Below are positions 18,812 through 28,341 of a DNA stretch of 52,115 nt, piece after piece. The stretch comes from an uncultured Planctomycetaceae bacterium. Its GTDB lineage: Bacteria > Planctomycetota > Planctomycetia > Planctomycetales > Planctomycetaceae. The notes below the pieces were generated by a model. It was not told the DNA's origin. It ran no database searches and saw only the letters and a list, made by a program, of their open reading frames with translations. Position 1 is the stretch's first letter; each line of letters opens with the position of its first letter. Both the position numbers and the translations under genes were made by a program. The stretch covers positions 1 to 52,115 of the forward strand of contig CALJUK010000225.1 in the NCBI GenBank assembly GCA_937975745.1. The letters run 5' to 3'.

Positions 18812-19063
18812 TTACGGACCATCCTCACCCTTGGTCAAGAACTCCAGGGCTCTTTGTGACCAATCCACGAGCTTTCGAAGGCTGCCCTCGTTCAAAACGA
18901 CATCGAGCACGACTGAGCTTCCATCCGTAGAAAGTTCCTCATCGTCGCACTCCACGGAAACCATCACCTTTCCCGATTCGCTTCCAGGGATGAATTCCTC
19001 TAGCCAGAGTTTGTCTCCATCACTCACAACACACGGTATCGATTCCTTTGGGAGAACCGTCAT
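18812..19063 (-). CDS. acidic hypothetical protein
   Basis: ORF 18812..19126. Internal ATG19063 is preferred because the longer form runs antisense to the conserved N-terminus of the plus-strand gene. Confidence 0.45.
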   Translation of the reverse strand: MTVLPKESIPCVVSDGDKLWLEEFIPGSESGKVMVSVECDDEELSTDGSSVVLDVVLNEGSLRKLVDWSQRALEFLTKGEDGP

Positions 19064-19496
19064 GATCGCTCTCTTTCGTGGTGTTTCCTGTGTTAGTTGG
19101 GCCGTCCGATGGCAGACGCGAAGCATTTACTCTCATGCTGCTCTGGTCACGAACCATGGAACGTTGATCGAGGCCGTGGAGTTTGTTGGCGTTCGGGAAC
19201 GGGCGATCCGGAAAACCGACAAGTACGACCTGTTCTCAGTCGAAGGCCTGACCCCTGAGAAGCTCAACATTGCCACAGATGTCACAAGAAGTCTAATCGG
19301 AAAACCGTACGACTATCTGTCTGTTCTGCGGTTCCTTTCCCGGAGAAAACCCAGCCACAACAATCGCTGGTTCTGCTCAGAGCTTGTGTTCGCGGCGATG
19401 GAATCAGTCGGTATCAAGCTGCTCGATCGGATCACGGCCGCCGAGGTCTCCCCCAAGCTCCTCTCGATCTCCCCGCTGCTCTGTCCTGTTTCGTGA
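19062..19496 (+). CDS. permuted papain-fold (YiiX/YaeF, C92-like) hydrolase
   Basis: Internal ATG of ORF 18831..19496 with GGGAG SD at 19050-19054. His-before-Cys order: IYSHAALV ... GKPYD ... WFCSELVF. Confidence 0.6.
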   Translation: MIALFRGVSCVSWAVRWQTRSIYSHAALVTNHGTLIEAVEFVGVRERAIRKTDKYDLFSVEGLTPEKLNIATDVTRSLIGKPYDYLSVLRFLSRRKPSHNNRWFCSELVFAAMESVGIKLLDRITAAEVSPKLLSISPLLCPVS

Positions 19497-19653
19497 CGGC
19501 CTGCTTCGTGGGAATGATCCACCGAACGAAAAACGCCACACCATTAACATCCAGATCGACCAGCGATCTTCGTTGTCCTTCGGGGTGTAGAGGCTCACTC
19601 GCGCAACACCCAAGCACGGCCATCCCCAAAGGGTGACTTCGTACTGGTGCGAT

Positions 19654-20337
19654 TCACTTGGGCCGAACGCTTCCATCACGGCTCCTGAGAAGGTTCAAGA
19701 ACGGCTCTTCGATCATGTGCAGCTTCTTGTGAAGGTCTTTCCGCAGGTAGAGCACGTCGAACTGAATCAGCACTCCGTCAATGAAGTGCTGTTCGGACAT
19801 GAGGATGGGGACGAAGTCCTTCAGTAAGGGAAGCACCTCGGCAATGCTCGCCCCCTCGTTGTACTCCACGAGTGGGAGTTCTATGAGGATCAGGGATGTG
19901 GTTTTCAGCGTGTCCCTCGCGCCCCTCAGAACCGCAGACTCAGACCCCTGCACGTCGATCTTGATGAAGTCCGGCCGACCCAACCCTCTACTCACCGCAT
20001 TGTCAATCGTGAAGGTGGGGATCTCCTGCGGCTCAACACCGTCGTAGGCCGCCGTCTGCTCCTGGCACACAGAATCACCCGTCCCACCGGTCGCACTGAA
20101 CGGGACCATCGCAACGCTCCCGTCATGTGCCGCATATCCCGTGAGGAACGGAAAGCCGGCCTGTGCAAGTACCTCGTCGTGGTCCTTGTTGGCTTCGAAC
20201 AGAACGAACTCGCTATCCCGAAGAACTCGCTTCATGTGCCTGGACCAAATCCCTTTGTGCGCGCCGATGTCGTAGACCCTGTCGATCTGGAGGCCAGCTT
20301 CGACCAGCCCTCTAACCTTGTCCTGCAGCGCCTTCAT
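19654..20337 (-). CDS. FkbM-family SAM-dependent methyltransferase
   Basis: VYDIGAHKG and FIKIDVQGSESAVLRG. ATG20337 overlaps the upstream stop (ATGA). Confidence 0.7.
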   Translation of the reverse strand: MKALQDKVRGLVEAGLQIDRVYDIGAHKGIWSRHMKRVLRDSEFVLFEANKDHDEVLAQAGFPFLTGYAAHDGSVAMVPFSATGGTGDSVCQEQTAAYDGVEPQEIPTFTIDNAVSRGLGRPDFIKIDVQGSESAVLRGARDTLKTTSLILIELPLVEYNEGASIAEVLPLLKDFVPILMSEQHFIDGVLIQFDVLYLRKDLHKKLHMIEEPFLNLLRSRDGSVRPK

Positions 20338-20789
20338 TGAAACTGACTCCTGTACTTGGCTTTGGCATGTCGCCCCAATGCCCCACGGGACCACTTCCAC
20401 CGAGCACCCTTAATCTTCTTGCAGACACGACATGTCCACCGTTTCAACTTGTGGTTTCTTCTAAGCGGTCCGCCACAACCAGGACACTTGCACCAAACCA
20501 CTTTCTTGCGAGGGGACTCAGGAAAATGAACTGACTCGTGACATGAATCACATAGCGACCGCAACGCATCTATCGAATCACCCGTCATTGAATCTTTGTC
20601 GTACGAGTTATGGTGAACTACCGCCGCTCTTGCACCGCACGAACAGAAGTACCCATCTCGCTTCAGAACCCTGGCGCGTATGGCCTTCCACATGTCTGAG
20701 TTGAGGTAATCAAGATATGACTCAAACCCCATGTCGGACAAAACTTGAGTCCTTTCCTTGACCGAAGGACCTCTCCAACCTCGTCTCAT
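20334..20789 (-). CDS. HNH endonuclease-like Cys-rich protein
   Basis: LNSDMWKAIRARVLKRDGYFCSCG...VHH...LCDSCHESVH, with an extra CPGCG...CRVC. GGAGGAG SD precedes ATG20789; the ORF track starts at TTG20834. Confidence 0.6.
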   Translation of the reverse strand: MRRGWRGPSVKERTQVLSDMGFESYLDYLNSDMWKAIRARVLKRDGYFCSCGARAAVVHHNSYDKDSMTGDSIDALRSLCDSCHESVHFPESPRKKVVWCKCPGCGGPLRRNHKLKRWTCRVCKKIKGARWKWSRGALGRHAKAKYRSQFQ

Positions 20790-21148
20790 AGCTCCTCCAG
20801 TCGGCGGTTTCACAGTGACGAGAGCACAGCTCAATTGACCGCCGACAAAACAAACCTGACTTCGACAAGTGGTTCGCGCACCGACCCCGTCAAGGGCCGG
20901 GTATTAGTCATCTGACTTGCGACAATGGGACAGAAGACCGGCCAGGACTGGCTTTGATATCGGAGTCATCCTGGCTTGCACCCGCACTCCGTTCCCACGT
21001 GAATTCCGACCCGGACGTCGTACACCGATCGGCATGGAAAATCTCTGCCCGTTGTCCCGCTGAGGACAGGCTAGGCGGGCCCTGCTGATGCCATCGGAAC
21101 GGCTCCTGTCAGCTCAGGTTGAGCAATTGGGCTCTATGTACGCGCACG

Positions 21149-21192
21149 AAAAAAGCCACAAATGAGTAGTGCGGTACTCAAATGTGGCTTTT
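21149..21192 (-). terminator. rho-independent terminator, usable in both directions
   Basis: GCCACA/TGTGGC plus TGAGTA/TACTCA two-part stem (21155-21188), flanked by A6 (T6 on the minus strand) and T4. Lies 50 nt downstream of the tRNA on the minus strand. Confidence 0.8.
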
Positions 21193-21241
21193 GGCTCGCC
21201 GTGGCCGGCAAGTTTTCCTGTCCTGTCCGCACACAGGTAAG

Positions 21242-21313
21242 TTGCTCGGGCTGGATTCGCACCAGCGATCTTCAGGGTATGAACCTGACGAGATACTACT
21301 TCTCCACCGAGCG
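21242..21313 (-). tRNA. tRNA-Met (anticodon CAT), initiator-like, with non-canonical D and T loops
   Basis: Hand fold: CGCTCGG TG GAGA AGTAGTA TCTC G TCAGG TTCATAC CCTGA AGATC GCTGG TGCGAAT CCAGC CCGAGCA A. All four stems pair. Has C1xA72 and A11:T24. Confidence 0.6.
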
Positions 21314-21357
21314 GATACGACTCTGCCAAAAGTTCGACAGTCCGTCAAGTGACGTTC

Positions 21358-21570
21358 TCAAAACCATCTCCATCCTGGCGGCATGGGCTCGTCGGGCATG
21401 AGCACAGCGGACTCATCCGTGCGAGGGTTGATCGCCAATCGACCGCCACCCCATCTCTTGCCGCACTTCGTGCACTCCCCCGCCATTCCCGAGTAAGAAA
21501 CTCCATCTGACACATGCCGTGTCACATGAAACTTACCGTGGAACATCCAGCAAAAAATGAGTCTCAGCAT
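21358..21570 (-). CDS. small hypothetical protein
   Basis: 70-aa ORF with AAGGGG SD 9 nt upstream. Lies between RNA elements. Confidence 0.3.
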   Translation of the reverse strand: MLRLIFCWMFHGKFHVTRHVSDGVSYSGMAGECTKCGKRWGGGRLAINPRTDESAVLMPDEPMPPGWRWF

Positions 21571-21709
21571 TGAAATTCCCCTTCATTCTCGCGCCCATCC
21601 CTGGGCCTTTCACCACGATTCCTAACGCTCAGGGGGGTAACCCAACTCTCCAGTGAATGTTTATCACAAAATGTCACTGCTATTGGAGTTGCGTCGAGTT
21701 TCAGTTCCC

Positions 21710-21749
21710 AAAAACACCGTGCTATTTGGGAAAAACACCGTGCTATTTG
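21710..21749 (+). repeat. tandem direct repeat, 2 x 19 nt with 21-nt period
   Basis: AAAAACACCGTGCTATTTG at 21710-21728 and 21731-21749, plus a degenerate third copy (cactgctattgg) near 21675-21686. Confidence 0.9.
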
Positions 21750-21900
21750 AGGCCACTCCGGGAATCGAACCCGGAACCCAAAGGTTGCTTCAAGGTCGTC
21801 AAGCGGTTGCCCGCCTCATGGACTCCACAGTTCCCCTGGTGCGCGTGCCCGTCCCCAACGCCTAGCCGTTTCGCTCGACACTCAGCGCGGACAAGTGGCC
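21750..21900 (-). ncRNA. tRNA-like structured element R (non-canonical, about 150 nt)
   Basis: Minus strand: 5' GGCCACT (21900-21894) ... AACC-TTTG-GGTT, CCGGG-TTCGATT-CCCGG, AGTGGCC (21757-21751), T. Internal GNRA hairpin GGCGG-GCAA-CCGCT (21815-21802). Confidence 0.35.
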
Positions 21901-21910
21901 GTCCTTGATC

Positions 21911-22070
21911 GGTGCCCCGTGAGGGGTTCGAACCCTCGTGACTCTCGCAGTCACCCGTCCACTCACGCCCGTCGACGCTCGCTTCGCAAAGCTTCCTGAA
22001 TGAGAGATGCAGGCTCCGTGGCGTACGATCCACATTGCGAGCACGCTGGCACCCATGCCAGCCTCAGGGC
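21911..22070 (-). ncRNA. tRNA-like structured element S (non-canonical, about 157 nt)
   Basis: Minus strand: GCCCTGA GG CTGG-CATGGGTG-CCAG ... GCTT-TGCG-AAGC ... GTGAC-TGCGAGA-GTCAC, GAGGG-TTCGAAC-CCCTC, ACGGGGC A CC. Confidence 0.35.
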
Positions 22071-22077
22071 ATCACTT

Positions 22078-22398
22078 CTAGTTGTGTTCGCCAATAACGG
22101 TCGTCTTCCCCGCCTCGTTGAGACGGGCCTCGATGGCACCGGAAAGCAAATCTGCCTCATCTTCCCCGTCAGCATCCCGCAAGAACGCATGGAGCTTCTT
22201 CATTACTCGAACGCCTTGTTTGTAAGAGTCCCCCCGAATATTTGGATGAGACAAGGCGAGAGTCATCATCGTCGTCAAGCCCGCGAGTTCCTCAAATGTT
22301 AGCACGATGTCGCACGTTCGACGTCCGCCCTGCCCTTGGAATGCATCCATGATTCGTTCCGCGAGCTGCTCGCCCGACATCGCTCGAAATTTGCTCAT
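22078..22398 (-). CDS. hypothetical protein
   Basis: ORF 22078..22428. ATG22398 is preferred (GGAG SD, downstream of motif G). Confidence 0.55.
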   Translation of the reverse strand: MSKFRAMSGEQLAERIMDAFQGQGGRRTCDIVLTFEELAGLTTMMTLALSHPNIRGDSYKQGVRVMKKLHAFLRDADGEDEADLLSGAIEARLNEAGKTTVIGEHN

Positions 22399-24522: not shown

Positions 24523-27500
24523 CTACTTGGACTCGGCCTTGCGGCGCTCCTTCTGTCGCTTCGACCAGAGGGACAGCAAATCTTGGAGTCGCTGAGCTTC
24601 AGCACGTTCCTTGGGCGACATCGCCGCGAGGTCGTCGGGCCGGAAGTAGAGCCGCTCGAACTTGCCCGCGCCGCGACTGAGCATGTCTTCCCGAACAAGC
24701 TCCCGGATTACCGCTTCCTTCGCACCTGGGCTGATATCGCTGACGCGAACACCCGTGAGGATGTTGGCCAGTGCTGCCGGTCCTGGGATTCGAGTCCCAG
24801 GGATCGCCTTTCGCTCATCGGTCAGTTGACGAACCGTCGTCAAGGCCCGTGCAGCCGGTGAATTCGCTACGGCCGTTTCGAGCCATTGCGGTAGTTGGAC
24901 AGCCTTCTTCTCGCCTGTCACGTTCGCCAGGAGACGTCCAACGAGGGGATCGAGGTCTTCGAGCGGCCGCCCGCCGGACGGACTCTTCTGGAAGAAGCTC
25001 TGACCTGTGAAGTACTCCAGGGGGCCTTTGACGAATGGATTCATCCGGCTGAGCACCTCAAGGCCGGCCGATCGAGCGTCTGGACCGAACGACAGCGGGT
25101 CTTCGTGCATCATCCCGAAGCCAGCGAGATACCGGTCTGTGCCGGCCGGAAGCTGCCCGAGAATATTCCCCAGCGGAATACTCGCCGTGTCGCGCACGTA
25201 GTCCGGAGCCGTCTCGGCATCCTGGTGCGCAAGGCGTTGTGTGCGGATTGTCGCGCCGAGGGGTCCGCCTGGGCGCTGGGCGAGTTCACTCACCACCTGC
25301 TTGCCCATCCGGCTGGAGAAGCTCCAGAACGGGATCAGACGCTTCATGATCTGCTGCTCGAACGGCGTGAAATACCGATTCGAATACTGGACCTGTGCCT
25401 GACCCACGAGTTTGGCTGCCTCGTCTCGGGCTGTCCCGCGTCGCAGAAGCTCAATGTACGGGGCGAGACGGTTGCGACCTTCCACGTAGTGACCAATCTC
25501 TTCGCCGGCCGCGAGAGGCCCCCACGTGCTCTCCGTGGCCCCTCGAACGCCTCTGAACTGAGCTTTGAGGGGATTGAGCTGCGTGTCCGGGTGAAGGCCG
25601 GACGCCTTCTGTGCGACCCGTCCAAGCCGCATGGCGGGATCACCCACGTCAACCTGACTGGAAAGCATCTCACTCAGCGATCCGGGCTTGGCCGCCGTCT
25701 TCTCGGTCTGAGCGATCGTGGCGGTCACATCGGTGGCTTGGTTGTTTCGCGAGAGGATCCCATCGGCAGACGCCATCTCCCCGAGAATCCTACGGGCCAT
25801 GTCGTCCGTAAGTCCGGGCGCATCGGCTGGATCAAACACGTAGCTGTTGCCAACCTTTCGATACCCCATGCCGTCGAGAATCGCTCCAAACTCAGGCGTC
25901 GCCTCTTCGACGACAACCCGCTTACCGGTTCCTGCCAGGGTATTGTGGAGCCGCCGGAAGTCTCCACGTCCAGGGACCGCAGACTGAACCCGCGCCACGA
26001 CCAGGGCATCAGGAACCTGCACTCCCTTGGCACCAACGTCTCTACCTGCCCAATCCTGACGACGAATCAGAAGATCGGGGAACGTTTCGTTCGACAGACT
26101 GTGCGATCCGCCCACTGGAGCACTCGCCACATCCTGTACGCGAGCTGCCAAGGCCTCATCGACCAGCTCACCGCCGGCTTGTCGCCGTGCCCACTCATCA
26201 CGGATGGCGGGGAGTTCCCGGAGCCCCGCAACCGCTCGCCCCTTCATGTAGTCACCAGCCATGGACTCCGCCTGTCGGCTGGTAATCCCCTTCATGAAGT
26301 TCCAGGCGAGACCAGACATGCGGTTTCGGACGTGGAAGGCCGGCCAGATCGAGGTCCACATGCCTTTGCCGAAGTTCGTAACTCCGTCGACGATCTTCAG
26401 CCATTCGTCGAGTTCGTCCGATCCGGTCATCTGCTTCATGTATTGGCGCACATCGTTGGCGATCTCCCTCGAAACAACCGCCTTTCCGAGTTCACCTGTC
26501 GTGACGTCTCCGGTCAGGCCGAGTTTCTTGAACAGGTACTCCCCAAACCCACCAGCCTCGTCAGACTTGCCCCACTTCAGCCCCACTTCCTTGACGAGTG
26601 TCATGAGCTGGACGGTGTCGCGAGCATCAGCAATCGCGTCGCCACGCAGCTTTACCACGCCCGGCTGTGAGAGGACATCGGCCAATGTTTCGATCGAGAC
26701 GTCCGCGTTCTTCGATGCCAGAAGTCGTGCGTTAAGGTCCTTGAGTGGGTGGTTGCCGAAGATTCCGGAATCAAGCGTCTCAGGCGCATAGCTTCCCAGC
26801 CGTTTCGCGAGGGCCTTGTACCGGCCGGTCTCCCTTCGAACCCACTCCCCAGCGCCGCCTCCGCCGGGAGTCTCCTTGAACATGCGGTAGGAGTCTGGCA
26901 GCCAGCTCCCGTGCTTTGCTTCTAGGAATTTGGCCACATCCTCGGTCTTGACGCCGTCTCGCGCGAGAACTTGCGCCAACTCCGGATCACGGGCGATCTC
27001 TTTTGCCGCGATGGTTCCGCCGGGGATGTCGCGGAAGACGTCCAGGCGGCCAATCTGAGATGAGTCTGCGGCCGAGATGAAGGCCTTGTCGCGGGCCGGC
27101 TTGTGGCCGAGAGCTTCCGCTATGAAGCGTGGAAAGTAATCGATGTAGTCGTCCGTCAGCTCCCCAGTCTTCTTCCCGATCGCCTTTCCCTGCTCGATCA
27201 TGGGTTTGATCAGGTCGCGTGCATCGTTCGCAACCTTTTGCATCACCTGCAACTGCTCGGGAGTTGTCCGCTTGAGCGTTTCGTCAATCCCAGCCCTCAC
27301 TGTCGATGGGACATCGGCGGGGCGCACACCCTCCATCATCATCCGCAGGAGGTCGCCAGCCGCCTCATCGGAGACGCCAGCCGTCTTGAGTTCGTTCCCG
27401 AGCCGAACCGCCTCGAGCTGCACATCTCCCATCGCAGCAATCTTCTCATCAAACGACCGCTTGGCGAATCGCTGAACCAAAGCACTCTTGGTCCCATGAA

Positions 27501-28341
27501 GTGCTGCGTCGAACAGACGAAACCCTGCATCGATCGGGCGAATCTCAGTGCCTGGAATGGCCGCGCGGCGGATTCCTGTGCCGATCTTGTCGAGGCGACG
27601 TGCTGCCGCCTGAGACTTTGCGCCCGTCCCCAGAACTGCTGACGGAGCAGAGAACGGGAGTCCTGCCCCAAACAGACCGCCGAGTTGCTCACCGCGGACT
27701 GCGTCCAGGGATGTTCCCATCTGCTGGGCGGCGGTGTGCGCCTTTGCTGTCGCCTGATCGCCACCATACTTGAGGAGATCGTCGAGCGTTGTGGAGAGCA
27801 TCGCCTCACGACGACCGATCTGATCAACCGGCTTGCCCGCCTTCTTCGCGGCCGCAAACACCGCATCATCAAGAAGCCCCGCTCGTTTGGCGACCTGACC
27901 AGCCTTTCCTACCGCCGACGCCCCCAAGGACAGGTATGTAAGCGGGTCGAGCCCCATTTCAATTCCGAGTCCACCCCAGAAGTTCCCGGTGGTGTCCCGC
28001 GAGCGTGCGAGGCCCATGTTGCGGGCAATGTCCCGCCCCGTCGTGCGCCCCTCGGATGAGAACCAGTTCCAGGGGAGAAGCTGATCGAGCGGGTTTCTGT
28101 CGCCGCGCCGGCCGCCTGAGAACAGATTGACCGTGTCACGAACCACGGAACCCGGCAAATCCAGAAAGTTCCCGACAGCTCCCGCCGTGTTAATTGCGCC
28201 ACTTCGTAGGCTCCCGACGAGAGATCGCTCTTCCTGGTCGCTCATCGGCTGTCGAGCTGGAGCCCGCCTCGATAGTGAGGCTGTCCGGCCAAGGAGCCTT
28301 GCCAGTTCTGGGTCAATCTGCGCAAGCACTTGCGACATCAC
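24523..28341 (-). CDS. very large virion-associated protein (internal/ejection or tape-measure-like; function unassigned)
   Basis: 1272-aa uninterrupted ORF at the distal end of the structural block. No catalytic motif recognised. Confidence 0.6.
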   Translation of the reverse strand: MMSQVLAQIDPELARLLGRTASLSRRAPARQPMSDQEERSLVGSLRSGAINTAGAVGNFLDLPGSVVRDTVNLFSGGRRGDRNPLDQLLPWNWFSSEGRTTGRDIARNMGLARSRDTTGNFWGGLGIEMGLDPLTYLSLGASAVGKAGQVAKRAGLLDDAVFAAAKKAGKPVDQIGRREAMLSTTLDDLLKYGGDQATAKAHTAAQQMGTSLDAVRGEQLGGLFGAGLPFSAPSAVLGTGAKSQAAARRLDKIGTGIRRAAIPGTEIRPIDAGFRLFDAALHGTKSALVQRFAKRSFDEKIAAMGDVQLEAVRLGNELKTAGVSDEAAGDLLRMMMEGVRPADVPSTVRAGIDETLKRTTPEQLQVMQKVANDARDLIKPMIEQGKAIGKKTGELTDDYIDYFPRFIAEALGHKPARDKAFISAADSSQIGRLDVFRDIPGGTIAAKEIARDPELAQVLARDGVKTEDVAKFLEAKHGSWLPDSYRMFKETPGGGGAGEWVRRETGRYKALAKRLGSYAPETLDSGIFGNHPLKDLNARLLASKNADVSIETLADVLSQPGVVKLRGDAIADARDTVQLMTLVKEVGLKWGKSDEAGGFGEYLFKKLGLTGDVTTGELGKAVVSREIANDVRQYMKQMTGSDELDEWLKIVDGVTNFGKGMWTSIWPAFHVRNRMSGLAWNFMKGITSRQAESMAGDYMKGRAVAGLRELPAIRDEWARRQAGGELVDEALAARVQDVASAPVGGSHSLSNETFPDLLIRRQDWAGRDVGAKGVQVPDALVVARVQSAVPGRGDFRRLHNTLAGTGKRVVVEEATPEFGAILDGMGYRKVGNSYVFDPADAPGLTDDMARRILGEMASADGILSRNNQATDVTATIAQTEKTAAKPGSLSEMLSSQVDVGDPAMRLGRVAQKASGLHPDTQLNPLKAQFRGVRGATESTWGPLAAGEEIGHYVEGRNRLAPYIELLRRGTARDEAAKLVGQAQVQYSNRYFTPFEQQIMKRLIPFWSFSSRMGKQVVSELAQRPGGPLGATIRTQRLAHQDAETAPDYVRDTASIPLGNILGQLPAGTDRYLAGFGMMHEDPLSFGPDARSAGLEVLSRMNPFVKGPLEYFTGQSFFQKSPSGGRPLEDLDPLVGRLLANVTGEKKAVQLPQWLETAVANSPAARALTTVRQLTDERKAIPGTRIPGPAALANILTGVRVSDISPGAKEAVIRELVREDMLSRGAGKFERLYFRPDDLAAMSPKERAEAQRLQDLLSLWSKRQKERRKAESK
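28257..28277 (+). promoter_or_regulatory. bipartite promoter-like motif (copy E)
   Basis: CTGGAGCCCGCCTCGATAGTG on the plus strand, antisense inside the first ~30 codons of the 1272-aa gene. Followed by a hairpin and ATG28360. Confidence 0.55.

What the first reader, a model, noticed from the sequence alone, without database searches (positions are those of the whole stretch)
21750..22070. Two tandem 150-nt tRNA-like RNAs with canonical T-arm and acceptor stem but no anticodon arm
The following is read on the minus strand. Element S (22070 to 21911) ends GAGGG-TTCGAAC-CCCTC + ACGGGGC + A + CC. Element R (21900 to 21750) ends CCGGG-TTCGATT-CCCGG + AGTGGCC + T. In a normal tRNA the 5' acceptor strand lies about 65 nt upstream of its partner. 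Here the complement lies 143-150 nt upstream. In R it is GGCCACT, a 7/7 match. In S it is GCCCTGA, 6/7 including one G-U. In S this strand is followed by 2 nt and a D-arm-like hairpin, CTGG-CATGGGTG-CCAG. I could not find a 5-7-5 anticodon arm in either element. The inserts instead contain tetraloop hairpins typical of structured RNAs: UNCG-type GCTT-TGCG-AAGC in S and GNRA-type GGCGG-GCAA-CCGCT in R. Each also has a hairpin abutting the T stem, like a class II variable arm. S starts 7 nt after the stop of gene 22078..22398, and R follows S after 12 nt. Possible roles are tRNA-like punctuation processed by RNase P or RNase Z, mimics for CCA-adding enzyme or aminoacylation, Y-RNA/YrlA-like modules, or tRNAs carrying large insertions.
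Basis: partly seen in the sequence, partly recalled or inferred. Interest (0 to 1): 0.65.

Follow-up and report, generated by a model that had tools for sequence, protein, structure and literature searches.

The report
Two long anticodon-less tRNA-like phage RNAs
A phage from a biofilter metagenome carries, just upstream of a real tRNA-Met gene, two tandem ~150-nt genes that keep a tRNA's acceptor stem and T arm but have other hairpins where the anticodon arm should be, most like the 50-year-old, still unexplained 'species 1' RNA of phage T4.

Summary
S (22070-21911, minus strand) and R (21900-21750) each end in a canonical T arm followed by a 7-nt strand. That strand pairs with the element's first 7 nt: 6/7 in S and 7/7 in R. 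S also has a correctly placed D arm.

ARAGORN, with or without introns, and Rfam do not resolve either element as a tRNA, tmRNA or any curated family. An intron-containing viral tRNA used as a positive control was found. Overlapping ORFs show no coding signal. Two such closed T arms occur in only about 1% of shuffles of the window.

S and R appear to share one transcription unit with a 70-aa ORF and tRNA-Met. A strong terminator hairpin follows tRNA-Met.

No homologue exists in any collection searched, and there are no RNA runs. Covariation and expression are therefore untested.

The closest known thing is T4 rnaC (species 1 RNA). I also found an unannotated 120-nt element in Certrevirus phages with the same architecture, and it is supported by compensatory changes.

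Best reading: S and R are RNase P/CCA-processed, stable tRNA-chassis RNAs of unknown trans function. I rate this a new variant of a known but obscure kind, of moderate interest.

The parts
21911..22070 (-). Element S: 160-nt tRNA-like gene. Acceptor 5' strand 22070-22064; D arm 22061-22046; extended hairpin 22044-22007; UNCG hairpin 21992-21981; hairpin abutting the T stem 21954-21938; T arm 21937-21921; acceptor 3' strand 21920-21914; A73 at 21913; encoded CC at 21912-21911.
   Evidence: Sequence; MFE fold; pair probabilities; strict T-arm scan and shuffles. The 3' 39 nt are 84.6% identical to the 3' end of a phage tRNA-Leu(UAA).
21750..21900 (-). Element R: 151-nt tRNA-like gene. Acceptor 5' strand 21900-21894; arm I 21893-21846; arm II 21842-21776, with the GNRA hairpin at 21815-21802; T arm 21774-21758; acceptor 3' strand 21757-21751; U73 at 21750.
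   Evidence: Sequence; MFE fold; pair probabilities of 0.86 or more even in a 441-nt context; 7/7 Watson-Crick closure.
22078..22398 (-). Upstream 106-aa ORFan gene. Its stop codon lies 7 nt before S, so RNase P cleavage at S's 5' end would define this mRNA's 3' end.
   Evidence: ORF list; positive codon-usage score of 0.27; no homologue other than itself; no Pfam or PHROG hit.
21710..21749 (-). Two exact tandem copies of CAAATAGCACGGTGTTTTT immediately after R's discriminator base. Role unknown; possibly a 3'-trailer, processing or attenuator element.
   Evidence: Unique in the window, with 0 expected by chance. The copies can fold into a hairpin, z = -2.6.
21358..21570 (-). Possible 70-aa ORF (contains CxxC) between R and tRNA-Met. 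Coding status is uncertain.
   Evidence: ORF list; neutral codon-usage score of -0.01; no Pfam hit; a purine-rich sequence lies upstream of the ATG.
21241..21313 (-). Genuine tRNA-Met(CAT) with a C1xA72 mismatch (initiator-like), in the same apparent transcription unit as S and R.
   Evidence: ARAGORN; Rfam tRNA 57.8 bits; about 84% identical to the tRNA-Met of Pseudomonas phage D3.
21149..21192 (-). Intrinsic-terminator-like hairpin followed by a U run, which appears to end the S-R-ORF70-tRNA-Met unit.
   Evidence: Sequence; fold z-score -4.85, with 0 of 200 shuffles folding as well. The simple consensus scan missed it.

Best explanation
S and R are genes for two stable, elongated tRNA-like RNAs of a lytic-type phage. 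They are functional analogues of T4 species 1 RNA (rnaC).

Proposed mechanism:
1. They are transcribed as the tail of the upstream operon, together with a small ORF and tRNA-Met. Transcription ends at the terminator after tRNA-Met.
2. Each element folds so that its acceptor stem (7 bp) stacks on its T arm (5 bp), giving the 12-bp minihelix with a canonical T loop that host tRNA-maturation enzymes recognise.
3. RNase P cuts at G1 of S, which also trims the upstream mRNA to 7 nt past its stop codon. It also cuts at G1 of R.
4. The 3' trailers are removed and CCA is completed. S encodes A73-CC; R encodes only U73.
5. This releases two RNAs of about 150-160 nt. Their tRNA 'chassis' gives precise ends and stability. 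Their non-tRNA bodies, multi-hairpin domains capped by UNCG and GNRA tetraloops in place of the anticodon arm, are the functional payload or mimic surface.
6. They cannot decode codons.

Shown: the sequence anatomy, non-randomness, non-coding status, operon layout, absence of an anticodon arm, and the existence of conserved analogues in other phages.

Inferred: transcription, RNase P and 3' processing, CCA addition, stability, and any trans-acting role.
For: - The anatomy is as described, and both ends close in unconstrained folds.
- Two closed strict T arms are rare in shuffles, about 1%. The elements are adjacent, on the same strand, and spaced 7 and 10 nt from the preceding features, as tRNA genes in an operon are.
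- Both elements independently keep a perfect T arm and 13 of 14 acceptor pairs while neither keeps an anticodon arm. This looks like selective retention rather than random decay.
- ORFs overlapping S and R have no coding signal: -0.05 to -0.31 per codon, against +0.13 to +0.41 for neighbouring genes.
- The context is a real tRNA-Met followed by a strong terminator. An HNH endonuclease gene sits next to the cluster. In T4, the homing endonuclease gene segB sits inside the tRNA cluster and is part of one ~1.75-kb precursor that ends after the species I gene (PMC2330249).
- T4 rnaC is 139 nt, lies at the end of the tRNA cluster in tandem with rnaD, and ends in CCGGG-UUCGAAU-CCCGG plus a 7-nt strand that pairs with its 5' end, with a hairpin next to the T stem. 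Alignment with two other phages shows an A-U to G-C compensatory change in that stem and a G-C to U-A change in the T stem. It has been detected as a stable RNA by Northern blot, and its function is unknown (PMC9697503, PMC3014915).
- A 120-nt element with the same architecture follows tRNA-Leu in Certrevirus phages (phiTE, CR3, CR9, CB7, PcCB7V, KaOmega, ENT3). It has 7 pairs with compensatory changes and no broken acceptor pair.
- From established knowledge, RNase P, RNase Z, the CCA-adding enzyme, TrmA and TruB act on acceptor/T-arm minihelices. The abstract of PMC4919913 (listed) describes RNase P as a molecular caliper that clamps onto the tRNA it measures.
Against: - There are no expression data.
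- No homologue exists in any collection, only the same phage again (L034), so there is no covariation test.
- Fold z-scores are weak, -0.8 for S and -1.5 for R.
- S's acceptor stem has an A-A mismatch and a G-U pair, and it is out-competed (p = 0.15) when the upstream ORF flank is included.
- The only polymorphism, R position 51 G>A, breaks a pair of the predicted arm I. The body structure is therefore not well constrained.
- Syntenic relatives lack the whole block, so it is dispensable for this phage group.
- Similarity to T4 rnaC and to the Certrevirus element is architectural only. A covariance model of the Certrevirus element scores R at 18.5 bits (E = 0.15), lower than an ordinary tRNA-Ser.
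Confidence: 0.55

Rival explanations
1. S and R are decayed tRNA genes, S from a class II tRNA-Leu-type gene. They were disrupted by insertions and rearrangements in the D/anticodon region. They are relics with no function of their own, at most still cleaved by RNase P as accidental punctuation.
For: - S's 3' 39 nt resemble phage tRNA-Leu genes, and it has A73, a variable-arm-like hairpin and a well-placed D arm.
- No homologues and no conservation could be shown.
- The only SNP breaks a predicted body pair.
- The block is absent from relatives.
- The neighbouring HNH gene has foreign codon usage, which suggests recent acquisition.
Against: - Two independent elements keep intact T loops and 13 of 14 acceptor pairs while both lose exactly the same part.
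- The inserted bodies are made of stable hairpins with UNCG and GNRA caps rather than random sequence.
- Phage genomes are compact, and 320 nt of junk inside an operon is unusual.
- Conserved analogues exist in T4-like and Certrevirus phages.
Confidence: 0.2
2. S and R are real decoding tRNAs that carry one or more introns or insertions, which are removed or tolerated.
For: - Viral tRNAs with introns of about 58 nt exist and are missed by default ARAGORN (L015).
- In S, a 5-bp stem CUCUC/GAGAG with loop AUUCAGG (anticodon UCA) lies 4 nt before the T stem (read directly from the sequence).
Against: - ARAGORN with canonical and non-canonical intron options finds the control but neither S nor R. 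At relaxed thresholds it gives only inconsistent junk calls.
- The UCA model for S needs two separate insertions (38 nt and about 47 nt) and competes with the stronger 6-bp hairpin that abuts the T stem.
- R has no candidate 7-nt anticodon loop at all.
- Bacteria have no bulge-helix-bulge splicing system, and the inserts are far too small for group I introns (established knowledge). There is no Rfam intron hit.
Confidence: 0.05
3. S and R are tRNA 3' fragments left by site-specific integration (attP-type cores or scars), and the upstream complementary 7-mers are coincidental.
For: - tRNA 3' fragments are common next to integrases. A relative (L037) has exactly such a fragment beside its integrase.
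- R's 3' 21-mer occurs as an orphan T arm plus CCA in a bacterial MAG.
Against: - No integrase or recombinase was found among the 30 ORFs scanned, which include the ten ORFs nearest the cluster and all the larger ORFs.
- S's 3' 23-mer has no exact match in 185,579 genomes.
- S has a complete 5' part (acceptor, 2 nt, D arm) in tRNA register, and R's closure is 7/7 Watson-Crick and begins 10 nt after S.
- Two such fragments in tandem would be odd for an att site.
Confidence: 0.04
4. S and R are members of another known tRNA-like class: a reduced or two-piece tmRNA, a YrlA/Y RNA, or a mascRNA-type 3'-end element.
For: - All of these classes share an acceptor/T-arm mimic without an anticodon.
- The best Rfam hit on R's 3' 61 nt is mascRNA-menRNA.
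Against: - ARAGORN's tmRNA search, including permuted forms, finds nothing at default thresholds.
- Neither element has a G3-U70 pair or a tag reading frame.
- S's 3' strand cannot pair with R's 5' strand, as a two-piece tmRNA would require.
- The mascRNA hit scores 20 bits against a gathering score of 42.5, with 5/7 acceptor pairs.
- In YrlA the ends form the Ro-binding stem, not the acceptor stem. There is no Rfam hit and no Ro/TROVE protein in the ORFs scanned.
Confidence: 0.03

Closest known systems
Bacteriophage T4 species 1 RNA (rnaC), with its tandem partner species 2 RNA (rnaD)
   Same: - Both are pairs of tandem small-RNA genes (139 and 119 nt) in a phage tRNA operon, separated by 6 nt. 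The operon is cotranscribed with tRNAs and has a homing-endonuclease gene in or beside the cluster.
- rnaC ends in a canonical T arm (CCGGG-UUCGAAU-CCCGG) plus a 7-nt strand that pairs with the 5' end. It has a hairpin next to the T stem, a long hairpin after the acceptor strand, and no anticodon arm.
- rnaD ends in ...GCGCACC, as S ends in ...GGGGCACC.
- It has no Rfam family.
- (PMC2330249.)
   Different: - There is no detectable sequence similarity.
- In T4 only rnaC has a T arm; here both elements have one.
- rnaC's acceptor stem has two conserved U-U mismatches, whereas R's is perfect.
- S has a bona fide D arm, which rnaC lacks.
- In T4 the pair lies at the end of the cluster. Here the pair precedes the single tRNA.
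- T4's RNAs have been seen by Northern blot (PMC9697503); S and R have never been observed as RNA.
Unannotated 120-nt tRNA-like element of Certrevirus phages (phiTE, CR3, CR9, CB7, PcCB7V, KaOmega, ENT3), found here
   Same: - It has a four-way junction: a 7-bp acceptor stem, a long arm, a hairpin next to the T stem, and a T arm.
- It has no anticodon arm and is not called by ARAGORN.
- It lies 4 nt after the last tRNA (tRNA-Leu) of a cluster.
- Like R, phiTE's copy has a U discriminator followed by CAAAU, and its T loop is identical (UUCGAUU).
   Different: - It is shorter and occurs singly.
- The body sequences are unrelated. Its covariance model gives R only 18.5 bits (E = 0.15), covering the T arm and acceptor only, which is less than it gives an ordinary tRNA-Ser.
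- It is supported by compensatory changes, which S and R cannot yet be.
tRNA-like domain of tmRNA (SsrA)
   Same: It has an acceptor stem plus T arm formed by the 5' and 3' ends, no anticodon, and a large insert in between. It is processed by RNase P and ends in CCA.
   Different: - S and R are half the size or less.
- They have no G3-U70 alanine identity pair, no tag ORF and no pseudoknots.
- ARAGORN and Rfam tmRNA models do not call them.
mascRNA/menRNA-type tRNA-like 3'-end processing elements (Rfam RF01684)
   Same: It is a tRNA-like fold directly downstream of another transcript. RNase P cleavage there makes the upstream RNA's 3' end and releases a small CCA-tailed RNA. This is the same logic proposed for S, which lies 7 nt after a stop codon.
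   Different: - It is eukaryotic and about 60 nt long.
- The hit on R reaches only 20 bits against a gathering score of 42.5, and it uses an inferior 5/7 acceptor pairing.
Class II bacterial/phage tRNA-Leu
   Same: S shares a T arm and acceptor 3' strand similar to phage tRNA-Leu genes (33/39 nt), the A73 discriminator, a hairpin in the variable-arm position, and a D arm in register.
   Different: S has no anticodon stem-loop. About 90 nt of extra hairpins lie between the D arm and the variable-arm-like hairpin. ARAGORN and the Rfam tRNA model do not call it.
Engineered 'tRNA scaffold' RNAs (anticodon arm replaced by a cargo RNA; recalled from my own knowledge of Ponchon and Dardel's method, not checked here)
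   Same: The design principle is the same: the acceptor/T (and D) parts are kept so that the cell processes and stabilises the RNA, and an unrelated structured RNA sits in place of the anticodon arm.
   Different: That system is artificial. The resemblance is conceptual only and was not tested.

Membership tests
tRNA (Rfam RF00005 / ARAGORN cloverleaf) | Complete cloverleaf with a 5-bp anticodon stem and a 7-nt anticodon loop, scoring above the family threshold | tested here: not met
   ARAGORN calls only tRNA-Met. At the Rfam gathering threshold only tRNA-Met is found. In E-value mode the tRNA model matches only R's T arm, at 12.8 bits and E = 9.4.
tRNA (Rfam RF00005 / ARAGORN cloverleaf) | 7-bp acceptor stem stacked on a 5-bp T stem, with a T loop of the UUCRANY type | tested here: met
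   S pairs 6/7 and 5/5 with loop UUCGAAC. R pairs 7/7 and 5/5 with loop UUCGAUU.
Intron-containing tRNA | A cloverleaf is recovered after removal of a single intron at a canonical or non-canonical position | tested here: not met
   Running aragorn with -i0,200 and -io finds the control tRNA-Ile with a 58-nt intron (L015) but nothing for S or R. Calls appear only at 70-80% thresholds, and they are mutually inconsistent.
tmRNA (one-piece or permuted) | tRNA-like domain with a G3-U70 pair, a tag-peptide reading frame, and detection by ARAGORN or the Rfam tmRNA models | tested here: not met
   No tmRNA is called. Pair 3-70 is C-G in both elements. The elements are only 150-160 nt long.
T4 rnaC (species 1 RNA) family | Detectable sequence homology to rnaC of Tequatrovirus and related phages | tested here: not met
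   blastn of the window region against 50,697 phage records finds no rnaC-bearing phage. rnaC itself retrieves 751 records, all T4-like.
T4 rnaC (species 1 RNA) family | Architecture: ends paired into a 7-bp stem continuous with a canonical T arm, a hairpin next to the T stem, no anticodon arm, and a location in a phage tRNA transcription unit | tested here: met
   See for rnaC, and for S and R.
T4 rnaC (species 1 RNA) family | Accumulates as a discrete stable RNA during infection | not testable with these tools
   No RNA runs hold the region, and the host is unknown.
Certrevirus 120-nt tRNA-like element (model R1) | Significant full-length match to the covariance model built from 7 phages | tested here: not met
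   R's 3' 62 nt score 18.5 bits, E = 0.15. S is not reported. An ordinary tRNA-Ser scores higher, at 22.9 bits.
mascRNA-menRNA (RF01684) | Score at or above the gathering threshold (42.5 bits) | tested here: not met
   The score is 20.0 bits, with E = 0.11-0.45, on 21751-21811.
YrlA / bacterial Y RNA | tRNA-like module closed by a loop, with the 5'/3' ends forming the Ro(Rsr)-binding stem, and an rsr gene nearby | tested here: not met
   In S and R the ends form the acceptor stem. There is no Rfam match up to E = 10. No TROVE-domain hit appears in the 30 ORFs scanned.

The most novel reading that the evidence does not exclude
S and R belong to a widespread, unrecognised class of phage 'tRNA-chassis' RNAs. 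T4 rnaC and the Certrevirus element are other members.

In this reading the acceptor/T minihelix does more than direct processing. It presents an anticodon-less tRNA mimic to host machinery: chargeable by an anticodon-independent synthetase (S has the Leu-type A73 and class II features), or a decoy or inhibitor for tRNA-directed enzymes such as anticodon nucleases of anti-phage defence, modification enzymes or EF-Tu. The inserted domain would supply specificity.

If true, this would give a function to a 50-year-old orphan RNA class.
Probability: 0.12. Interest if true: 0.8.

Novelty: new variant of a known kind. Interest (0 to 1): 0.5.

Why it matters
Phage T4's species 1 and 2 RNAs have been known since the 1970s and still have no function (PMC3014915, PMC9697503). 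No Rfam family matched them in the T4 region searched, and genome annotation ignores them.

One is a distant phage whose polyvalent protein has relatives in Planctomycetes genomes. The other is an unannotated, covariation-supported element in Certrevirus phages. This suggests that 'acceptor + T arm + foreign body' RNAs recur in phage tRNA operons.

If they are real processed RNAs, three things follow:
- They mark a blind spot of tRNA and ncRNA annotation.
- They offer natural examples of the tRNA-scaffold principle.
- They give several independent systems in which to ask what anticodon-less tRNA mimics do during infection: mRNA punctuation, enzyme decoys, or counter-defence.

Tried and rejected
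Homologue searches that found nothing useful:
- The upstream 106-aa protein is an ORFan in IMG/VR and in the 5.8-billion-protein set.
- The 1272-aa polyvalent protein and the HNH protein have no relatives in IMG/VR.
- Exact 3'-end patterns of R and S gave 0 hits in viral contigs. In genomes they gave 0 for S and 1 orphan fragment for R.
- A tandem T-loop pattern in viral contigs returned only ordinary tRNA arrays.
- An R/phiTE-type degenerate pattern found only phiTE itself.
- A long tandem T-arm pattern in metagenomes found the same phage again plus one unrelated tRNA array.
- blastn against phages at E up to 5 gave only T-arm/acceptor matches.
- Twelve syntenic relatives were fetched through the polyvalent protein (L002-L006, L036-L042). 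None has S/R-like elements. Two have short non-canonical tRNA-like elements instead.
- Pseudomonas phage D3, which has the closest tRNA-Met, has no orphan T arm near it.

Other checks and rejected readings:
- The three metagenome runs show only one SNP, so they are uninformative for covariation.
- The covariance model of the Certrevirus element does not discriminate S or R from ordinary tRNAs.
- Rejected: a two-intron tRNA(UCA) model for S. It is contrived and conflicts with the stronger hairpin abutting the T stem.
- Rejected: a two-piece tmRNA spanning S and R, because the strands are not complementary.
- Rejected: an attP reading, because there is no integrase.
- Rejected: a coding reading of the overlapping 96-aa ORF, on codon score.
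- Dropped: the idea that R is 'tRNA-Cys-like'. It rests only on U73, a GCAA tetraloop and the L007 fragment, which ARAGORN does not call as a tRNA and which is not next to an integrase.
Full report
**1. The observation**

Element S:
- It begins with GCCCTGA at 22070, 7 nt after the TAG stop at 22080-22078 of the gene 22078-22398.
- The order of parts is: acceptor 5' strand, GG, CTGG-CATGGGTG-CCAG in exact D-arm register (7+2+4+8+4), an extended hairpin, a UNCG-type hairpin (GCTT-TGCG-AAGC), and a 6-bp hairpin (GTGACT-GCGAG-AGTCAC) directly abutting the T stem.
- Then come the T arm GAGGG-TTCGAAC-CCCTC, the 3' strand ACGGGGC, A73 and an encoded CC.

Element R:
- It begins with GGCCACT at 21900, 10 nt after S.
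- It ends with CCGGG-TTCGATT-CCCGG, AGTGGCC and U73 at 21750.
- It contains GGCGG-GCAA-CCGCT.

Pairing and folding:
- The acceptor pairing is 6/7 in S (one G-U, one A-A mismatch) and 7/7 Watson-Crick in R.
- Unconstrained RNAfold closes both molecules through these strands and keeps both T arms.
- Partition-function probabilities are 0.86-1.0 for the T arms and 0.96-1.0 for acceptor pairs 1-6 when each element, or the S-R dimer, is folded.
- R stays at about 0.86 in a 441-nt context. S's acceptor falls to 0.15 when the upstream ORF's 3' end is included.
- Fold z-scores are weak, at -0.8 and -1.5.

**2. More than chance?**

- A strict T arm is expected 0.44 times in a dinucleotide shuffle of the 52-kb window on both strands. 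Two are seen, both here.
- 1.3% of 300 shuffles have two T arms with a closing strand, and 1% have one with a 7/7 Watson-Crick closure.
- A lone 6/7 closure is common by chance, so S's acceptor stem on its own is not significant. Its exactly placed D arm gives it independent support.
- The simulation ignores several further coincidences. The elements are 163 nt apart on one strand, lie in a non-coding gap, sit upstream of a real tRNA, and have 5' strands that begin 7 and 10 nt after the preceding feature, which is typical tRNA-operon spacing.
- ORFs overlapping S and R score -0.05 to -0.31 per codon on a codon-usage log-ratio trained on this phage's long genes. Neighbouring real genes score +0.13 to +0.41.

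The feature is real and non-coding.

**3. What it is not**

- ARAGORN finds only tRNA-Met(CAT) at 21313-21241.
- Rfam at gathering thresholds finds only that tRNA.
- Permissive Rfam scans give nothing better than mascRNA-menRNA at 20 bits (gathering score 42.5) on R's last 61 nt, and a 12.8-bit local tRNA hit on R's T arm.
- I ran ARAGORN locally with intron options (-i0,200 and -io). It recovers a control, a viral tRNA-Ile(UAU) with a 58-nt intron that I came across in L015, but it calls nothing in S or R. At 70-80% thresholds it gives only mutually inconsistent calls.
- By hand, S contains CUCUC...GAGAG with a loop AUUCAGG (anticodon UCA) 4 nt before the T stem. That model needs two separate insertions and conflicts with the stronger hairpin next to the T stem, so I reject it.
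- Neither element has a G3-U70 pair or a tag reading frame, and S's 3' strand cannot pair with R's 5' strand. One-piece and two-piece tmRNA are therefore excluded.
- YrlA has the opposite topology, because its ends form the Ro-binding stem. No Ro/TROVE protein, integrase, reverse transcriptase or tRNA enzyme appears among the 30 ORFs scanned.

**4. Context**

The window is a tailed phage. It encodes a large terminase, a tail-fibre chaperone domain, a helicase, a YqaJ exonuclease, an SbcC-like ATPase, a Dam methyltransferase and a 1272-aa polyvalent protein. Relatives of the polyvalent protein include Planctomycetes genomes.

The phage is known only from one biofilter metagenome study and from ENA/JGI assemblies of the same phage.

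On the minus strand the gene order is:
1. the polyvalent protein;
2. small genes;
3. the 106-aa ORFan;
4. S;
5. R;
6. two exact 19-nt tandem repeats;
7. a possible 70-aa ORF;
8. tRNA-Met, which has an initiator-like C1xA72 mismatch;
9. a strong terminator hairpin with a U run, z = -4.85;
10. an HNH endonuclease with atypical codon usage, then an FkbM methyltransferase.

Twelve syntenic relatives lack this whole block. It therefore looks like an acquired, dispensable module.

**5. Homologues**

None were found. Searches covered:
- protein anchors;
- exact and gapped DNA patterns in viral contigs, genomes and metagenomes;
- blastn against 50,697 phage records.

These returned only the same phage, ordinary tRNAs, or T-arm-level matches.

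- S's 3' 39 nt are 84.6% identical to an unannotated tRNA-Leu(UAA) of Xanthomonas phage Xoo-sp13, and a second hit is also a tRNA-Leu. Together with A73 and the variable-arm-like hairpin, this suggests that S descends from a class II tRNA-Leu-type gene.
- The single polymorphism among runs and contigs is R position 51 G>A. It breaks a pair of the predicted arm I but leaves the acceptor and T arms at p of 0.9 or more.
- No RNA runs contain the region.

Covariation and expression are therefore untested.

**6. Closest known**

*T4 rnaC and rnaD.*
- The T4 tRNA cluster ends with two tandem small-RNA genes, rnaD (119 nt) and rnaC (139 nt), 6 nt apart.
- rnaC ends with CCGGG-UUCGAAU-CCCGG followed by CGUUUCG. 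That strand pairs with CGAUUCG at the 5' end.
- It has a hairpin next to the T stem and a long hairpin after the acceptor strand.
- Aligned with two related phages, the third acceptor pair changes from A-U to G-C and a T-stem pair changes from G-C to U-A.
- rnaD ends in ...GCGCACC, much as S ends in ...GGGGCACC.
- Rfam has no family for either RNA.
- Their function is unknown (PMC3014915; PMC9697503, which confirms them by Northern blot).
- The T4 primary transcript spans the tRNAs, the homing endonuclease segB and both RNAs, and it terminates after species I (PMC2330249). That layout parallels the one here.

*A Certrevirus element found here.*
- R's 3' end led me to an unannotated 120-nt element 4 nt after tRNA-Leu in Pectobacterium phage phiTE: GGCAAUU...CCGGG-UUCGAUU-CCUGG-AAUUGCC-U.
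- It is conserved at about 75% identity in six other records: CR3, CR9, CB7, PcCB7V, KaOmega and ENT3. The first five are classified as Certrevirus; ENT3 carries no taxonomy.
- RNAalifold gives a four-way junction of acceptor stem, long arm, hairpin and T arm.
- Seven pairs show compensatory double changes. In the acceptor stem there are two compensatory and three wobble changes, and none is broken. All of this comes essentially from one phiTE-versus-rest split.
- A covariance model of this element does not single out S or R. R's 3' part scores 18.5 bits, T4 rnaC scores 17.1 bits, and an ordinary tRNA-Ser scores 22.9 bits.

The relationship of S and R to both analogues is therefore one of architecture, not demonstrable homology.

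**7. Mechanism**

The following rests on established knowledge, not on tests made here. RNase P, RNase Z, the CCA-adding enzyme and the T-loop modification enzymes need only the stacked acceptor/T-arm minihelix with its T loop. RNase P measures the tRNA it clamps onto (abstract of PMC4919913, listed).

S and R both offer a 12-bp stack with a canonical T loop. I therefore infer the following steps:
1. The operon transcript is cut 5' of G22070 and G21900.
2. This also sets the 3' end of the upstream mRNA and frees the downstream ORF70/tRNA-Met segment.
3. The 3' trailers are trimmed and CCA is completed.
4. Two stable RNAs of about 150-160 nt accumulate. Their bodies, not their tRNA parts, carry whatever trans function exists.

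Shown: anatomy, non-randomness, non-coding status, operon layout, absence of an anticodon arm, and conserved analogues elsewhere.

Inferred: everything enzymatic.

The main rival is that these are insertion-wrecked tRNA relics. The argument against it is that two independent elements retain the same parts and lose the same part, and that their inserts are built from capped stable hairpins. Without homologues this rival cannot be excluded.

**8. Verdict**

The finding is a new variant of a known but obscure kind: T4 species-1-like tRNA-like RNAs.

Interest is moderate (0.5). The individual case is unproven. However, three unrelated phage lineages now show the same anticodon-less tRNA chassis in tRNA operons, which makes a long-standing orphan RNA class more tractable.

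Noticed in passing
window 21710-21749 (minus strand): Two exact tandem copies of CAAATAGCACGGTGTTTTT (period 21) lie directly after R's discriminator base. The sequence is unique in the window. The copies can pair with each other into a hairpin (z = -2.6). Function unknown.
   Followed up: partly
window 21149-21192 (minus strand): A strong terminator-like hairpin (AAAAGCCACA...UGUGGCUUUUUU, z = -4.85) follows tRNA-Met. The consensus terminator scan missed it.
   Followed up: yes
window 21241-21313 (minus strand): The tRNA-Met(CAT) has a C1xA72 mismatch, as bacterial initiator tRNAs do, but only two G-C pairs next to the anticodon loop. It is about 84% identical to the tRNA-Met of Pseudomonas phage D3.
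   Followed up: partly
window 18831-22070: The block S-R-ORF70-tRNA-Met-HNH-FkbM methyltransferase, plus a C92 amidase on the other strand, is absent from syntenic relatives, which go from the polyvalent protein to YqaJ. The HNH gene has atypical codon usage, which suggests an acquired mobile module.
   Followed up: partly
window 24523-28341 (minus strand): This 1272-aa 'polyvalent protein' has no Pfam or PHROG hit. It has 48 relatives in metagenomic phage contigs and in Planctomycetes genomes (Planctomicrobium, Pirellula), which hints at the host phylum.
   Followed up: partly
L025 407-526 (Pectobacterium phage phiTE), and L026-L031 307-426: An unannotated, conserved 120-nt tRNA-like element (acceptor stem plus T arm, no anticodon arm) follows tRNA-Leu in Certrevirus phages. 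Seven of its pairs show compensatory changes.
   Followed up: yes
L015 5933-6064 (minus strand; IMG/VR contig 3300017713_000160): A viral tRNA-Ile(UAU) carries a 58-nt intron after the anticodon loop. Default ARAGORN misses it, and the intron option finds it.
   Followed up: yes
L018 about 190-290 and L033 about 1370-1450 (L018 from a GVMAG-labelled IMG/VR contig; L033 a 97-kb JGI metagenome contig of unverified origin): The 3' half of a tRNA (T arm plus acceptor 3' strand) lies just upstream of a tRNA 5' half. This looks like circularly permuted tRNA genes.
   Followed up: no
L024 460-524 (Klebsiella phage RCIP0153 and related ~40-kb Klebsiella phages): A 65-nt mini tRNA-like element (acceptor 6/7 plus a canonical T arm) lies just downstream of a T7-like promoter sequence and upstream of a small gene. 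It is unannotated.
   Followed up: partly
L037 18109-18182 and L036 23545-23615 (relatives of the window's phage): Short (71-74 nt) tRNA-like elements have 7/7 acceptor stems and canonical T arms but aberrant D/anticodon regions. One has a 6-nt loop GCAUGU containing CAU. ARAGORN does not call them.
   Followed up: partly
L037 14330-14386: A tRNA 3' fragment, running from the anticodon arm to the acceptor 3' strand, lies about 170 nt from a tyrosine integrase gene in a temperate relative. This is a typical attP arrangement and a useful contrast to S and R.
   Followed up: no
L007 1119-1146 (Dormibacterota MAG): An orphan T arm, acceptor 3' strand and CCA are identical to R's over 21 nt. No tRNA is called and no integrase lies nearby. 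Its nature is unclear: a tRNA fragment or another long tRNA-like element.
   Followed up: partly
L023 545-631 (Xanthomonas phage Xoo-sp13): A clear tRNA-Leu(UAA) and a tRNA-Met are not annotated in the GenBank record.
   Followed up: yes
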